NCBI GenBank assembly: GCA_000146465.1
Contig: CP001942.1
DNA length: 64,000 nt
Strand: one strand, 5' to 3'
Below are positions 51,450 to 64,000 of the stretch, in pieces. Position 1 is the stretch's first letter. The number at the start of each line of letters is the position of its first letter. The position numbers and the translations under genes are program-made. Under the pieces are notes generated by a model. That model ran no database searches and was not told the DNA's origin. It saw only the letters and a list, made by a program, of their open reading frames with translations.

Positions 51450-51509
51450 TTGTTTGTGTAAGGTAGATTCAATATAAATTTCACTTTAATTAATTTGAAA
51501 AAGAGGCTT

Positions 51510-52043
51510 TCAGGGAGACTTCAAAAAATAGAAGGCTGAGTTGACATAGAGCTCGTAGAGGATGTCAAAGATGTCCAGGTCCTGGGTGTCTGTCTCAGAA
51601 AACCCAAGCACAGCACACCTCAGGTCTCCCTTCCACCGCACCCCGCTCCTCTCCACATCTCTCCTCCCAAGATATGCCTTCTTCGTCAGCGCAGTGTTCT
51701 GCACAAACTCGTTCTCGTTGAGCTCCATGTGCACCCTGTATCCATATTCAGGGAGGTAGTCGACCTCGAGAGATCTCAGCCATCGCGTGTCTGGCCTGCC
51801 GAGTGCATCCACAGGGAGCAGTGCCGCCCCGGGCCTGTAGTTCGCAAGTGCGCGGGCCCAGTAGCACTCAACTGCCCTGCGGACAAGCCCGTCCTTCTTT
51901 CCAAGCAGAGGCTTGATGTTCCTGTGGTGCTCCAGCTTGCACTCAAAGTCCCTCCTTGCAAACGCCTCGTGCTCCCCGTCAATGTCGGACTGGATCTCGT
52001 CCAGAAGCCTACAGATCTCTGCATCCTGCATCCAGGGGGGCAT
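51510..52043 (-). CDS. Nucleosome-assembly-protein (NAP/SET)-family-like ORF, short and possibly truncated. It lies in the GC-rich block and its 5' end overlaps the ABC-transporter 3' end by about 35 bp.
   Basis: 177 aa. ECYWARALANYRPGAALLPVDALGRPDTRWLRSLEVDYLPEYGYRVHMELNENEFVQNTALTKKAYL mirrors the NAP core pattern (FWxTAxxNH ... YLxxIxV ... GFxLxFxFxxNxYFxNxxLTKxYxL). It is only about half the length of typical NAP proteins. Confidence 0.45.
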   Translation of the reverse strand: MPPWMQDAEICRLLDEIQSDIDGEHEAFARRDFECKLEHHRNIKPLLGKKDGLVRRAVECYWARALANYRPGAALLPVDALGRPDTRWLRSLEVDYLPEYGYRVHMELNENEFVQNTALTKKAYLGRRDVERSGVRWKGDLRCAVLGFSETDTQDLDIFDILYELYVNSAFYFLKSP

Positions 52044-61481: not shown

Positions 61482-61509
61482 GTATTTGAGAGATTGGGGG
61501 GAATTTTTT
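61482..61509 (+). other. Internal transcribed spacer (very short; no GTTT-repeat array)
   Basis: It lies between the SSU 3' end (GGATCA) and the first LSU-conserved block. Boundaries are approximate to within about 15 nt. Confidence 0.5.
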
Positions 61510-64000
61510 TGATTTGAGGATTCACGGGATTGATAGGCATTAGCAGCGAGGAAGGACGTGTAGGAGGACGATATGCCTTTTTGAGGATGTCTGAATGAAG
61601 CGGAAGCGCTTGGGGACCCCTTTGACTTAAGCATATCAATAAAGGGAGGAGAAGAAACCAAAAGGGATTGTCGGAGTAGCGGCGAGTGAAAGGACAGGAG
61701 CTCGAATGGTAACTGCGTTTGGCGGGTTGTTTTGAGTAGGAGGAGACTGAGCTAGGGATTGAAGTCCCTGATCTTAGAGGGGGAATGGCCTGTAAGTATC
61801 CGGACTTGAGAGAAGAGTAGGGTTGTTTGGTAGTGCAGCCTGAATTGGGTGGTGTTTTTTTTCACCGAAAGCTAAATATAAGCTAATGACCGATAGCGAA
61901 GAAGTAGAGTGATTGAAATGTGAAAAAGACAAGATGAAAAATGAAAGTGAATGCTTTGAAGGGGATGAGACCCGCCCGTCTTGAAACACGGACCAAGGAG
62001 AGGATGGCTGGATTGTTTTAGCGAGAGCTAGTGGATGCAGTGATCCGACCCGAAAGATGGTGAACTATGCCTGTGTTGATTGAAGGGATGCGAAAGTGTT
62101 CTGGAGGATCTAAGCCGTTCTGACGTGCAACTCGATGGCATGAGATGGGCATAGGGGCGAAAGACCAAACGAACCATCTGGTAGCTGGTTCCCTCTGAAA
62201 TGTCTCTCAGGACAGCGGCGACTTGATGTAAGATGTTGTAAAGCACTAATGCGATAGCGTTAAACTTTGAAGATGTCTTGTAAGGGGGTAGCCAGTGGGC
62301 ATATTGTGGTAAGCATGATGTGCGAGAAGGGATGAACCTTTTTTAGGATAAGGAGCCGTATGCAAGGGAAGAGAATCTGGCGGTTTGATTTTGACAGTTG
62401 GACGGTGGCCATGGAGGTTGGCATCCGCTAAGAAACGTGTTGCAACGTACCTACCGAATTGGGCGCTGGAGAAAATGGAAGGGATTGAATTGCAGGTATC
62501 CGAGGCCTTAGCGGCGGAGCTGAGTAAGAGGGCGATATCATTCTGACGAAGGTCCTGCGTGAGCGGGGGTGGAGGGGTGATATGAGCAGATCTTGGTAGT
62601 AGTAACAAGAAAGGATTTGCGCTGTGGACGAGGGTTCCCCATTTGATGGGGGTGAATCGACTGTTGAAACGGAGACTGATTGAAGATTGAGTGTATGGAT
62701 GCTTTGAGGCGACTTGATGATGACGGATGGGGGATTTTTGATCCTAGGAGAGCAGAACTAGGGGAAGTAGCGGTGTGGATTGTTAAGAGACGAAGCAGCG
62801 CTGAGGAGATGACCTGTTCCGATGAAAAAGAAGCATGCATGTCGTACCTAGACCGCAACAGGTGTCCACTGTTTGACGCGGAAGCGAATTTGAGAAGGGT
62901 TGTAAGGGAAGTCGGCAAGATGGATGTGTAACTTTGGGAGAAGGATTGGCTCTAGCGTGCTAGAACTGTTTGTTGTGGGGAATCTGACTGTTTATTAAAA
63001 ACATAGCCTTGCGGAAGAACGCAAGGTGAATTCTGCCCAGTGCACTTTTAGTTACGGCTTTTTGAGCTTAAGCGAGTGTAAACGGCGGGAGTAACTATGA
63101 CTCTCTTAAGGTAGCCAAATGCCTCGTCATGTAATTAGTGACGCGCATGAATGGAGCAACGAGATTCCCACTGTCCCTACGACCTGTATTGTGAACCTAC
63201 AGCCAAGGGAACGGGCTTGGGCTGATCAGCGGGGAAAGAAGACCCTGTTGAGCTTGACTCTAGCATGTGAGAAGTGCTGAGGGTGGTTATGAAGAGAGGT
63301 GGGGGGAGATGTGCGAGACCACTATGACTGAGCCTCAGCGGTTTATTTATGGATGTGGGGAGTTTGGCTGGGGCGGCACGACTGCTAAAGACTAACGCAG
63401 ACGTCCTAAGGCGGGCTCAGCGGGGAAGGAAACCACGCGTGGAGCACAAGGGCATAAGCCTGCTTGAGACTATTCCTATTGCGGGATTGTTTGGGGGAAA
63501 CCCTGGCCTAGAGATCCCATGTCCTATAAGGCTTGGGACATGGGTGACAGAAAAGTTACCACAGGGATAACTGGCTTGTAGCAGCCGAGCGATCATAGCG
63601 ACGCTGCTTTTTGATTCTTCGATGTCGGCTCTTCCTATCATCGTGAAGCAGAAATTGCGAAGTGTTGGATTGTTCACCCACCAACAGGGAACGTGAGCTG
63701 GGTTTAGACCGTCGTGAGACAGGTTAGTTTTACCCTACTGTGATTGACTGGGCAGTAAATCTTGATAGTACGAGAGGAACTCTTGATTGCGACCTCTGGT
63801 GGAGCGGCAAGCCTGCTGGCTGTTGCGGAGCTACGTCGGGAGTATAATGGCTGAAGGCCTCTAAGCCTGAAGACTGACTGCGCTGTGATGTGGACGGAAG
63901 ACGACCGTTATGGATGCAAGCTGTGCGAATGGAGGAGTAATCCGACATTTTGAGGCTGTGCATTTTTTCCTCGATGTGGGGAGAGGGGAAGAGGATTGAA
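61510..64000 (+). rRNA. Large-subunit (23S-like) rRNA with fused 5.8S-equivalent 5' region. Complete or nearly so, with the 3' end at or near the window edge.
   Basis: GCGAGGAAGGACGTG (61546..61560) matches bacterial 23S / 5.8S GCGATGAAGGACGTG. TTAAGCATATCAATAAAGGGAGGA (about 61628) is the eukaryotic 28S 5' block. The sarcin-ricin loop AGTACGAGAGGAAC is at about 63770. No separate 5.8S or ITS2. The 5' boundary is approximate. Confidence 0.85.

What the first reader, a model, noticed from the sequence alone, without database searches (positions are those of the whole stretch)
51450..64000. Abrupt base-composition break: AT-rich core versus GC-rich distal 12.5 kb
Hand counts on 60-nt samples give 35-40% GC in core genes (positions 1-60, RtcB start) and 53-60% GC from about 51.5 kb onward (ABC gene sample 60%, aminopeptidase sample 53%). 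The switch falls inside the 60-bp spacer between chitin synthase and the NAP-like ORF. The GC-rich side holds five co-oriented genes (NAP-like, ABC, SHMT, TS, DHFR), then the aminopeptidase and the rDNA. It also produces many long spurious ORFs in alternative frames. A step of this size could mark a core/subtelomere boundary shaped by GC-biased gene conversion among chromosome ends that share the rDNA. Alternatively the block may have a different evolutionary origin from the core, by introgression or acquisition.
Basis: partly seen in the sequence, partly recalled or inferred. Interest (0 to 1): 0.7.

Follow-up and report, generated by a model that had tools for sequence, protein, structure and literature searches.

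The report
Core-to-subtelomere composition step, Encephalitozoon chromosome I
The jump in GC content at 51.5 kb is real and marks the inner edge of a terminal segment that three chromosome ends of the microsporidian Encephalitozoon intestinalis share in near-identical copies, but this boundary and its base-composition bias are already described in the literature.

Summary
GC is 41.8% before position 51,572 and 51.6% after it. This is the largest step in the window, and GC3 rises from 0.36-0.55 to 0.58-0.73. The window is the right end of E. intestinalis ATCC 50506 chromosome I in the 2010 assembly. The step lies about 50-90 bp from the inner boundary (window 51,483) of a terminal segment. That segment is present without a single substitution over 13.8 kb at both ends of chromosome I and at one end of chromosome VIII. 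The same gene block and the same step occur in E. cuniculi, E. hellem and E. romaleae. Copies are near-identical within a species, while silent sites are saturated between species, so the copies evolve in concert. A foreign origin is not supported: SHMT and TS are closest to microsporidian relatives, gene order is conserved across the genus, and the bias differs between species. The shift is not a symmetric GC gain. In E. intestinalis it is G enrichment on the telomere-directed strand whatever the gene orientation, plus a C depletion that deepens towards the chromosome end. GC-biased gene conversion alone does not predict that. The window's junction with the rDNA is not found in the part of the telomere-to-telomere assembly I could fetch, which has at least 9.5 kb more sequence there. 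Dia et al. 2016 and Mascarenhas dos Santos et al. 2023 already report the phenomenon. It is already known and of low interest.

The parts
48999..51449 (-). Chitin synthase 1, the last single-copy core gene at this chromosome end (GC 39.7%, GC3 0.41)
   Evidence: Pfam Chitin_synth_2 E=1e-200. Exact match to E. intestinalis ADM10995.1. Composition.
51450..51509 (.). 60-bp AT-rich spacer (23% GC) that contains the inner boundary of the segment shared by three chromosome ends. The copies are identical from window 51,483 outwards.
   Evidence: Three-way identity of L001/L002/L003 ends at locus position 13,814, which is window 51,483. Spacer GC.
51483..59961 (.). The part of the shared terminal segment that is present both in the window and in the telomere-to-telomere assembly. 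This is the GC-rich housekeeping block.
   Evidence: blastn gives 99.9% identity between the window and L001/L002/L003 and L010-L012, and 0 mismatches among the three T2T copies over 13.8 kb. The GC changepoint is at the same locus position at all three ends.
51510..52031 (-). NAP/SET-like ORF (173 aa as annotated), the innermost gene of the shared segment. The GC changepoint 51,572 lies in its 3' part.
   Evidence: Pfam NAP E=1.7e-4, below the gathering score. A 173-aa gene is called in T2T. Dia et al. 2016 name a NAP/SET-family gene at this position in E. cuniculi. Changepoint.
52009..53853 (-). ABC transporter (annotated ATM1-like). GC3 0.72. At four-fold sites C 0.52 and G 0.13 on the coding strand.
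   Evidence: Pfam ABC_tran and ABC_membrane. Source name. Composition.
53917..55296 (-). Serine hydroxymethyltransferase, GC3 0.70
   Evidence: Pfam SHMT E=4e-160. Homologues. Composition.
55343..56227 (-). Thymidylate synthase (294 aa). The 364-aa ORF listed up to 56,437 over-extends into DHFR.
   Evidence: The Pfam match starts at residue 80 of the long ORF. A 294-aa gene is called in T2T. The 294-aa product is 100% identical to the E. intestinalis TS entry.
56257..56871 (-). Dihydrofolate reductase. GC3 0.66. At four-fold sites C 0.59 and G 0.05 on the coding strand.
   Evidence: Pfam DHFR_1. Composition.
56915..59503 (+). M1 aminopeptidase, the only + strand gene of the block. At four-fold sites G 0.46 and C 0.03, so it has the same strand bias as the oppositely oriented genes.
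   Evidence: Pfam Peptidase_M1. Composition. It is 862 aa here and 860 aa in T2T because of a 1-nt indel at 59,497.
59962..60189 (+). G-rich, nearly C-free spacer upstream of the SSU rRNA gene. Its junction to 59,961 is not found in the T2T sequence I could fetch.
   Evidence: blastn of the window against L010-L012 stops at window 59,961. T2T continues with different sequence and four more genes.
60190..61484 (+). SSU rRNA gene (51% GC), transcribed towards the chromosome end
   Evidence: Rfam RF02542, 1113 bits. GC.
61594..63974 (+). LSU rRNA gene (50% GC)
   Evidence: Rfam RF02543, 1414 bits. GC.

Best explanation
The break is the core/subtelomere boundary at the right end of Encephalitozoon intestinalis chromosome I.

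Shown: everything distal to window 51,483 belongs to a terminal segment that is also present, with no substitutions, at the other end of chromosome I and at one end of chromosome VIII. The GC changepoint sits within about 50-90 bp of that homology boundary at all three ends. The same gene block, the same inner boundary (24-27 nt past the NAP-like stop codon) and a GC3 step occur in the sister species. Copies are near-identical within a species, while silent sites are saturated between species, so the ends are continually homogenised by recombination between them.

Inferred: the composition difference is produced in place by mutation or repair processes that act only on the shared terminal segment. 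It is not caused by the ancestry of the genes or by selection on them. Two components can be separated on the telomere-directed strand. (1) The purine ratio G/(G+A) steps up at the boundary, from about 0.3 to 0.7-0.8 at four-fold sites, and stays high to the end. In E. cuniculi the matching gain is symmetric on both strands, and in E. hellem it is on the other strand. (2) C is depleted progressively: C/(C+T) falls from 0.57 to 0.08 over 17 kb towards the telomere.

My preferred mechanism combines two things. The first is a recombination- or repair-associated AT-to-GC bias confined to the multi-copy segment. That explains why the step respects the homology boundary. The second is a telomere-anchored, strand-asymmetric mutation pressure. 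This could come from fixed replication-fork polarity towards the end, or from damage to cytosines on the 3'-ended strand when ends are resected or copied by break-induced replication. That explains the skew and its gradient. I give the structural part about 0.95 and the mechanistic part about 0.45.
For: Step and changepoint.

Organism and paired accessions.

Three copies and their genes. There are 0 mismatches over 13.8 kb, and homology ends at locus position 13,814 (window 51,483). The GC changepoint is at 13,763 (13,684-13,801) in all three loci, with 38-39% GC on each different core flank.

Orthologous loci in E. romaleae, E. hellem and E. cuniculi have the same gene order. All four species show a GC3 step, from 0.65-0.72 to 0.36-0.49, 0.68-0.78 to 0.46-0.60, 0.57-0.66 to 0.48-0.56, and 0.48-0.59 to 0.39-0.49. 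The two E. hellem copies are 99.83% identical over 9.2 kb with the same boundary, while four-fold sites are only 30-60% identical between species.

The strand bias is independent of gene orientation. The gradient has Spearman rho -0.96 (p=2e-9) for C/(C+T).

Literature: Dia et al. 2016 (PMC4704409) describe the GC shift at the transition between the subtelomeric 'EXT' repeats and the core in E. cuniculi. They describe the gene content (EXT1-2 holds aminopeptidase-dhfr-ts; EXT1-3 holds SHMT, ABC and NAP/SET), a GC skew reaching the rDNA, and they discuss replication, transcription and gBGC. Mascarenhas dos Santos et al. 2023 (PMC10158259) report strong GC/AT, GT/AC and GA/CT shifts between subtelomeres and cores in E. 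intestinalis. They also report a 27.3-kb fragment that is 99% identical between both ends of chromosome I and one end of chromosome VIII.
Against: No substitution spectrum could be obtained. Silent sites between species are saturated and the paralogues carry no substitutions. An AT-to-GC fixation bias is therefore inferred from composition only.

gBGC predicts a symmetric gain. That is seen in E. cuniculi TS, SHMT and ABC but not in E. intestinalis or E. hellem.

C-to-T damage on the exposed strand would lower GC and raise T, so it cannot on its own explain the G gain.

In E. cuniculi the SHMT-ABC-NAP part is reported on chromosome I only yet is the most GC-rich part, so copy number does not scale with GC.

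A sharp chromatin boundary could give the same coincidence, because subtelomeres carry intermediate 5mC/5hmC levels.
Confidence: 0.8

Rival explanations
1. Replication-only model. A constitutive origin sits at or near the core/subtelomere junction. The whole terminal segment is always replicated by forks moving towards the telomere, and the leading/lagging mutational asymmetry alone produces both the skew and the GC change. The differences between species reflect different origin positions.
For: The G>C skew on the telomere-directed strand is independent of gene orientation. The skew changes sign at the NAP/ABC junction in E. intestinalis but near DHFR/TS in E. hellem, E. romaleae and E. cuniculi. 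Dia et al. 2016 propose a constitutively active origin and no origin in the distal region for E. cuniculi. An AT-rich minimum lies at the junction (23% GC spacer).
Against: Fixed fork polarity predicts a plateau of skew, not the monotonic decline of C/(C+T) from 0.57 to 0.08. It does not explain the symmetric GC gain in E. cuniculi TS, SHMT and ABC. Nor does it explain why the change coincides with the homology boundary at three ends with different core flanks, although a recently copied end would bring its composition with it. No origin has been mapped.
Confidence: 0.25
2. Chromatin model. The shared terminal segment is heterochromatic and cytosine-methylated, and a different damage and repair regime in that chromatin state produces the composition. 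The step would be a chromatin boundary.
For: Mascarenhas dos Santos et al. [quoted passage not shown] They report that increases in methylation overlap the increases in nucleotide bias.
Against: Deamination of 5mC lowers GC and depletes CpG. Yet CpG observed/expected is not lower in the distal block (0.64, and 0.79 in the rDNA part) than in the core (0.56). Methylation is not known to be strand-specific in a way that would give a 14:1 G:C ratio. No DNA methyltransferase could be identified in these genomes.
Confidence: 0.15
3. Foreign origin. The five to six genes were acquired by horizontal transfer or introgression from a GC-richer donor and still carry its composition.
For: The composition change is abrupt and gene-bounded. 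Other nucleotide and folate genes are said to have been horizontally acquired in E. hellem and E. romaleae. That rests on my own knowledge of Pombert et al. 2012, whose paper was not available.
Against: Block and gene order are conserved in four Encephalitozoon species. SHMT is nearest to Encephalitozoon at 73-75%, then unnamed relatives at 60-72%, then Nematocida and Amphiamblys. TS is nearest to Encephalitozoon at 78-81% and unnamed relatives. The bias sits mainly at silent sites, has the same strand polarity in oppositely oriented genes, and extends into non-coding DNA and the InterB/DUF2463 genes. It also has opposite strand polarity in E. hellem and E. intestinalis, so it post-dates speciation. 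A relative with SHMT-ABC next to core genes shows no step (L009). DHFR, the ABC transporter and the NAP-like gene were not searched on their own.
Confidence: 0.03
4. Selection on codon usage. The distal housekeeping genes are highly expressed and prefer G/C-ending codons.
For: GC3 is the most affected codon position.
Against: The preferred third base is C in the five - strand genes and G in the + strand aminopeptidase. It follows the DNA strand, not the mRNA. Non-coding stretches carry the same bias. Orthologues in sister species use different third bases.
Confidence: 0.02

Closest known systems
EXT1 subtelomeric segmental duplication and the EXT-to-core GC shift of Encephalitozoon cuniculi (Dia et al. 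2016, BMC Genomics 17:34, PMC4704409)
   Same: The gene content is the same: aminopeptidase-dhfr-ts, then SHMT, ABC transporter and NAP/SET. So is the position, between the rDNA-bearing end and the core. It is likewise repeated at both ends of chromosome I and one end of chromosome VIII. It has the same GC% shift with an AT-rich minimum at the transition and the same GC skew reaching the rDNA (compared).
   Different: In E. intestinalis all three copies extend through SHMT-ABC-NAP, whereas in E. cuniculi that part is reported on chromosome I only. In E. intestinalis the strand skew starts at the boundary itself rather than between dhfr and ts. GC levels are lower overall.
[quoted passage not shown] 2023, BMC Genomics 24:237, PMC10158259)
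   Same: This is the same organism, strain and segment. The paper reports a 27.3-kb fragment that is 99% identical between both ends of chromosome I and one end of chromosome VIII. It also reports abrupt GC shifts flanking the cores and strong GT/AC and GA/CT strand biases. My boundary at 13,354 + 13,814, about 27.2 kb from the chromosome end, matches that length.
   Different: From the passages I read, the paper does not resolve the bias by codon position. It does not split it into purine and pyrimidine components, and it does not compare the skew switch point between species. The window is the older 2010 assembly, which lacks at least 9.5 kb of this end.
GC-rich subtelomeres attributed to recombination or GC-biased gene conversion in other eukaryotes, for example Cryptosporidium canis and C. 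felis (PMC10438818)
   Same: GC is elevated at chromosome ends relative to cores in a small parasite genome, and recombination is discussed as the cause.
   Different: In that case the mechanism is stated to be unclear and the authors say it does not involve segmental duplications. Here the step coincides with a duplication boundary and is strongly strand-asymmetric.
Hypermutability of resected single-strand DNA at uncapped telomeres and double-strand breaks in yeast (Yang et al. 2008, PMC2577886; Chan et al. 2012, PMC3521656)
   Same: It offers a telomere-anchored process that exposes many kilobases of one strand next to an end, and so could give a distance-dependent, strand-specific loss of C (titles and abstracts). 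That the 3'-ended strand is the exposed one, and that cytosines are the main target, is from my own knowledge of those papers.
   Different: This is an experimental mutagenesis system, not an evolutionary composition pattern. Nothing here shows that it operates in microsporidia, and it does not explain the gain of G.

Membership tests
Encephalitozoon EXT-type subtelomeric segmental duplication (homologue of E. cuniculi EXT1) | Lies between the terminal rDNA unit and the single-copy chromosome core | tested here: met
   The rDNA is at 60,190-63,974. The core genes proximal to 51,449 are collinear with E. cuniculi, E. hellem and E. romaleae.
Encephalitozoon EXT-type subtelomeric segmental duplication (homologue of E. 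cuniculi EXT1) | Repeated at several chromosome ends with very high identity | tested here: met
   There are three copies (CP075158.1 both ends, CP075165.1 one end), with 0 mismatches and 3-7 indel positions over 13.8 kb.
Encephalitozoon EXT-type subtelomeric segmental duplication (homologue of E. cuniculi EXT1) | Gene content: aminopeptidase-dhfr-ts plus SHMT, ABC transporter and NAP/SET | tested here: met
   Pfam matches compared with the description in Dia et al. 2016. The NAP assignment is weak, at 21.4 bits against a cut-off of 28.6.
Encephalitozoon EXT-type subtelomeric segmental duplication (homologue of E. cuniculi EXT1) | GC% shift at the EXT-to-core transition, with an AT-rich minimum at the junction and a GC skew extending to the rDNA | tested here: met
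   The changepoint is at 51,572 and the junction spacer is 23% GC. The + strand GC skew is +0.08 to +0.54 from 52 kb to 64 kb, apart from one 1-kb window at -0.03, and reaches +0.87 in T2T.
Encephalitozoon EXT-type subtelomeric segmental duplication (homologue of E. cuniculi EXT1) | Associated multigene families (InterAE, InterB, InterC, InterD) | tested here: met
   These are absent from the window. In the T2T copy of this end, two DUF3654/DUF1609 genes and two DUF2463 genes lie between the aminopeptidase and the rDNA. Equating DUF1609 with InterB is from my own knowledge.
Tract shaped by GC-biased gene conversion | Ongoing recombination or conversion with a homologous partner | tested here: met
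   Evolution is concerted. Paralogues are identical within E. intestinalis and 99.83% identical in E. hellem, while four-fold sites are saturated between species and the boundary is the same in both species.
Tract shaped by GC-biased gene conversion | Excess of AT-to-GC over GC-to-AT fixed substitutions | not testable with these tools
   Silent sites are saturated between species (30-60% identical). There are no substitutions between paralogues and no population data were available.
Tract shaped by GC-biased gene conversion | GC gain symmetric on the two strands and present at all site classes | tested here: not met
   In E. intestinalis, four-fold sites on the telomere-directed strand have G 0.46-0.48 and C 0.03-0.16. 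The gain is symmetric only in E. cuniculi TS, SHMT and ABC. Short intergenic spacers inside the block stay at 23-43% GC.
Horizontally acquired or introgressed island | Genes group phylogenetically outside the host lineage | tested here: not met
   The nearest relatives of SHMT and TS are Encephalitozoon species and unnamed close relatives. These are hit lists only, not formal trees. DHFR, the ABC transporter and the NAP-like gene were not searched.
Horizontally acquired or introgressed island | Patchy presence among sister taxa | tested here: not met
   The block is present with the same order and flank in E. cuniculi, E. hellem and E. romaleae.
Replication-associated strand compositional asymmetry | Skew polarity follows the DNA strand, not the transcription direction | tested here: met
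   The - strand genes have C4 much higher than G4, and the + strand genes have G4 much higher than C4.
Replication-associated strand compositional asymmetry | The skew switch coincides with a mapped replication origin or terminus | not testable with these tools
   No replication data are available for microsporidia in the tools. Only the switch positions are known.

The most novel reading that the evidence does not exclude
The subtelomeric composition may be written mainly by a telomere-anchored, strand-specific mutational process rather than by GC-biased gene conversion. Candidates are damage to the 3'-ended strand during end resection or break-induced replication, or obligatory outward fork polarity. 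The position where the skew begins has moved between sister species: it lies at the homology boundary in E. intestinalis and near dhfr/ts in E. cuniculi, E. hellem and E. romaleae. On this reading that position marks a relocated subtelomeric replication origin or a different reach of end processing. The smooth fall of C/(C+T) from 0.57 to 0.08 over 17 kb would then record, over evolutionary time, how far end processing reaches into the chromosome.
Probability: 0.2. Interest if true: 0.45.

Novelty: already known. Interest (0 to 1): 0.15.

Why it matters
The boundary is the operational definition of 'core' versus 'subtelomere' in the smallest known eukaryotic nuclear genomes. Essential folate and thymidylate genes (SHMT, TS, DHFR) sit on the unstable, recombining side of it, in two to three identical copies. 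Both points are already published for E. cuniculi (2016) and for this very strain (2023), so confirming them adds little. The analysis here adds some quantitative detail. The 'GC-rich' label hides two separable strand-specific components. The direction of the bias differs between sister species. The older assembly used for this window truncates the chromosome end. These details could guide a test of replication or end-processing asymmetry in microsporidia, but they do not change the picture.

Tried and rejected
1. I tried to polarise substitutions (AT-to-GC versus GC-to-AT) with orthologues from four species. I rejected this because four-fold sites are only 30-60% identical, which means saturation.

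2. I tried to use differences between paralogues as polymorphisms. There are no substitutions among the three E. intestinalis copies and only 8 in E. hellem, with no usable outgroup.

3. I hoped the internal E. hellem copy (L005, about 90 kb from the nearest end) would serve as a natural experiment on position versus composition. It is uninformative because it is 99.83% identical to the subtelomeric copy, so the rearrangement is too recent. [quoted passage not shown]

4. I looked for a step in protein divergence at the boundary. E. intestinalis versus E. cuniculi identities are 60-78% for distal genes and 57-88% for core genes, so there is no clear step.

5. I looked for extra CpG depletion as a footprint of methylation. 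There is none: 0.64 and 0.79 in the distal parts against 0.56 in the core.

6. I tried to fetch the outermost 9 kb of the T2T chromosome end through a DUF2463 gene.

7. The E. cuniculi SHMT cluster representative has no contig on record. I reached the locus through chitin synthase instead.

8. Pombert et al. 2012 (PMC3412028) is not held.

9. The TS hit list cannot resolve deep phylogeny, because animal and microsporidian TS are both about 62-66% identical. It was used only to exclude a recent foreign source.

10. I did not build formal trees. I did not search DHFR, the ABC transporter or the NAP-like protein.

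
Full report
**What the window is.** Exact protein look-ups identify the sequence as Encephalitozoon intestinalis ATCC 50506. The chitin synthase, ABC transporter, SHMT, DHFR, aminopeptidase, GDPD and kinase all match entries of that strain. These are chitin synthase 48,999-51,449 (-), a weak NAP-like ORF 51,510-52,043 (-), ABC transporter 52,009-53,853 (-) and SHMT 53,917-55,296 (-). 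They continue with TS 55,343-56,227 (-; the 364-aa ORF over-extends), DHFR 56,257-56,871 (-) and M1 aminopeptidase 56,915-59,503 (+). Rfam finds a microsporidian SSU rRNA at 60,190-61,484 and an LSU rRNA at 61,594-63,974, both on the + strand.

**Check of the observation.** The step is real. A single-changepoint likelihood scan puts it at 51,572, with a 2-lnL interval of 51,495-51,622. GC is 41.8% to the left and 51.6% to the right, and lnL improves by 193 units. One-kb windows do not overlap: the core maximum is 0.465 and the distal minimum 0.477 (Mann-Whitney p=9e-8). The step of +0.17 to +0.21 is about twice the next largest in the window. GC3 is 0.36-0.55 in 35 core ORFs and 0.58-0.73 in the six distal genes. 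GC1 and GC2 rise less. Stop-free frames of at least 150 aa number 25 in the distal 12 kb, against 8-13 in core samples, so the 'spurious ORF' remark is also correct. The hand counts overstated the contrast. Only 51.6-53.0 kb reaches about 56-62% GC.

**What the boundary is.** In the telomere-to-telomere assembly GCA_024399295.1, SHMT is encoded at three places. These are both ends of CP075158.1 (189,841 bp, chromosome I) and one end of CP075165.1 (247,125 bp). The three loci carry the same genes from the aminopeptidase to the NAP-like ORF, and then three different core genes. blastn gives 0 mismatches and 3-7 indel positions over 13.8 kb among the copies. Three-way identity ends at locus position 13,814. 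That is window 51,483, which lies 27 nt past the NAP-like stop codon and inside the 60-bp, 23%-GC spacer. The GC changepoint is at locus position 13,763 (13,684-13,801) in all three loci, and GC drops to 38-39% on each of the three different core flanks. The boundary lies about 27.2 kb from the chromosome end (13,354 + 13,814). This matches the 27.3-kb fragment that Mascarenhas dos Santos et al. 2023 report as 99% identical between both ends of chromosome I and one end of chromosome VIII. The chromosome I-left and chromosome VIII copies share 38 bp more than the three-way boundary. One of them was therefore probably copied from the other.

**Comparison with sister species.** I fetched the orthologous locus from E. 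romaleae (L004), E. hellem (L005, L006) and E. cuniculi (L007). Gene order from aminopeptidase through DHFR, TS, SHMT, ABC and NAP to chitin synthase is conserved. All four species show a GC3 step at the NAP/chitin-synthase junction: E. intestinalis 0.65-0.72 versus 0.36-0.49, E. cuniculi 0.68-0.78 versus 0.46-0.60, E. hellem 0.57-0.66 versus 0.48-0.56, and E. romaleae 0.48-0.59 versus 0.39-0.49. The two E. hellem copies are 99.83% identical over 9.2 kb, and their homology ends about 24 nt after the NAP stop codon. Between species, four-fold sites are only 30-60% identical. The inverted duplication with this boundary therefore predates the species, yet the copies remain near-identical within each species. 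That is concerted evolution by recombination between chromosome ends.

**Foreign origin.** SHMT is closest to E. cuniculi (75%), E. romaleae (74%) and E. hellem (73%). Unnamed metagenomic relatives (60-72%) come next, and then Nematocida and Amphiamblys. TS is closest to Encephalitozoon (78-81%) and unnamed relatives (67-76%). Beyond that the enzyme is too conserved to discriminate. Together with the conserved gene order and the species-specific direction of the bias (next paragraph), this leaves no support for acquisition or introgression as the cause of the composition. A metagenomic relative with SHMT-ABC next to core genes is uniformly about 50% GC, with no step (L009). Another relative shows a step just inside its SHMT-bearing contig end (L008). 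The composition therefore follows genomic context, not the genes.

**Nature of the bias.** The bias is not a symmetric GC gain. At four-fold degenerate sites, expressed on the window's + strand (which runs 5' to 3' towards the telomere), the five - strand genes have G 0.476 and C 0.156. The + strand aminopeptidase has G 0.461 and C 0.026. Core genes have G and C near 0.17-0.23. The favoured third base thus follows the DNA strand and not the mRNA. That excludes codon-usage selection, and it excludes transcription-coupled asymmetry of these genes.

Splitting the bias gives two components. The purine ratio G/(G+A) rises from 0.28-0.31 in the core to 0.72-0.79 in ABC through DHFR, and to 0.51-0.61 further out. 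The pyrimidine ratio C/(C+T) is roughly core-like in ABC, SHMT and TS (0.36-0.47) and falls to 0.05-0.25 from the aminopeptidase outwards. Over all sites in the T2T locus L010, C/(C+T) falls monotonically from 0.57 to 0.08 between 5 and 22 kb (Spearman rho -0.96, p=2e-9). G/(G+A) stays at 0.5-0.65. GC% decays from 0.60 to 0.39-0.45 (rho -0.87), and GC skew climbs to +0.87.

In E. cuniculi the inner genes are enriched symmetrically (0.73-0.80 and 0.67-0.68). In E. hellem only C/(C+T) is raised (0.69-0.74). The skew sign change lies at the NAP/ABC junction in E. intestinalis and near DHFR/TS in the other three species. Dia et al. describe the dhfr/ts position for E. cuniculi.

**Mechanism.** These points are shown:
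- The step is the edge of a recombining, multi-copy terminal segment.
- The bias arose in place.
- The bias is strand-specific and graded towards the end.

The cause is inferred. A process tied to ectopic recombination or repair, such as gBGC, best explains why the change respects the homology boundary at the ancestral NAP/chitin-synthase junction in four species. A telomere-anchored asymmetric process best explains the skew and its gradient. That process could be constant outward fork polarity, as Dia et al. proposed. It could also be damage to the exposed 3'-ended strand during resection or break-induced replication. Many kilobases of such single-strand DNA form and are hypermutable next to uncapped yeast telomeres (PMC2577886 and PMC3521656; the strand and base details are from my own knowledge). 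Neither process is demonstrated here. C-to-T damage does not explain the G gain. CpG is not further depleted in the block (0.64 versus 0.56), which argues against 5mC deamination as the driver.

**Assembly caveat.** The window equals the T2T sequence only from 43,917 to 59,961 (99.95%). Beyond 59,961 the window runs into 228 bp of G-rich spacer and then the rDNA. T2T continues with at least 9.5 kb holding two DUF3654/DUF1609 genes and two DUF2463 genes before the rDNA. In the 2010 assembly the rDNA was linked to chromosome ends by nested PCR from LSU primers (PMC4355639). The short junction may therefore be a length variant or a PCR or assembly shortcut. The far side of the junction could not be fetched.

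**Novelty.** Dia et al. 2016 describe, for E. cuniculi, the EXT-to-core GC shift, the AT-rich minimum at the transition, the same genes in EXT1-2 and EXT1-3, the GC skew to the rDNA, and the replication, transcription and gBGC explanations. Mascarenhas dos Santos et al. 2023 describe the nucleotide-bias shifts, the duplicated 27.3-kb segment and the methylation gradient in this very strain. They use the abrupt GC shifts to define the cores. The finding is therefore already known. The additions here are quantitative refinements: the codon-position and strand decomposition, the bp-level coincidence with the homology boundary at three ends, the species-specific skew polarity, and the truncated 2010 junction.

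Noticed in passing
window 59,961/59,962 (compare L010 13,048/13,049): The window (2010 assembly) joins the aminopeptidase flank to the rDNA upstream spacer here. The telomere-to-telomere assembly of the same strain instead continues with at least 9.5 kb carrying two DUF3654/DUF1609 genes and two DUF2463 genes. This is either a length variant or a PCR or assembly shortcut.
   Followed up: partly
window 51,505; 51,598; 51,895; 59,294; 59,687; 59,836; 59,851 (plus a 1-nt indel at 59,497): All seven substitutions between the 2010 and T2T assemblies of the same strain lie inside the triplicated segment, and none lie in the 7.5 kb of core compared. Six of the seven are G or C in the window and A or T in T2T. 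Only one is in a CpG. The indel explains the 862-aa versus 860-aa aminopeptidase. The causes could be sequencing error, a collapsed-copy consensus or real change.
   Followed up: partly
L005 (E. hellem CP119062.1, 150,522-171,904 of 262,033 bp), TS at L005 9,067-9,950: One E. hellem copy of the block is internal, about 90 kb from the nearest chromosome end and flanked on its outer side by core-type genes. It keeps its GC-rich composition. Its thymidylate synthase is split into two ORFs of 145 and 149 aa, so this copy of TS may be decaying.
   Followed up: partly
L011 and L012 positions 4,531-4,568 (equivalent to L002/L003 13,815-13,852): The chromosome I-left and chromosome VIII copies share 38 bp beyond the three-way homology boundary. 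This suggests that one of these ends was copied from the other, for example by break-induced replication. In E. cuniculi the SHMT-ABC-NAP part is reported on chromosome I only.
   Followed up: partly
L009 (JGI metagenome 3300073835, contig Ga0596921_0000620): An unnamed relative (SHMT 66% identical) has SHMT-ABC directly next to genes that resemble the E. intestinalis chromosome VIII core flank (B-box zinc finger, clathrin adaptor small chain, LSM). The contig is uniformly about 50% GC with no step.
   Followed up: no
window 51,484-64,000 and L010 4,570-22,583: Canonical G-quadruplex motifs (four runs of at least three G) occur only on the telomere-directed strand of the terminal segment. There are 3 in the window part and 7 in the T2T locus, against none on either strand in 51.5 kb of core.
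   Followed up: no
window 33,418-34,086 (+): This 222-aa ORF has an unusual codon-position profile (GC2 0.57, GC3 0.40). It produces the second or third largest local GC step in the window (at about 33,470). I did not identify it.
   Followed up: no
window 55,343-56,437 and 51,510-52,043: The mechanical ORF list over-extends two genes. TS is 294 aa starting at 56,227, not 364 aa overlapping DHFR. The NAP-like gene is annotated as 173 aa and still overlaps the 3' end of the ABC transporter gene by about 23 nt.
   Followed up: yes
L008 (Logan DRR353006 contig 16236, 39.5 kb): A more distant unnamed relative (SHMT 60% identical) has SHMT within about 100 bp of a contig end. SHMT and the next gene are GC3 0.57-0.64 and C-skewed. 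There is then a drop to GC3 0.33-0.49, so a similar composition step may exist outside the four named species.
   Followed up: no
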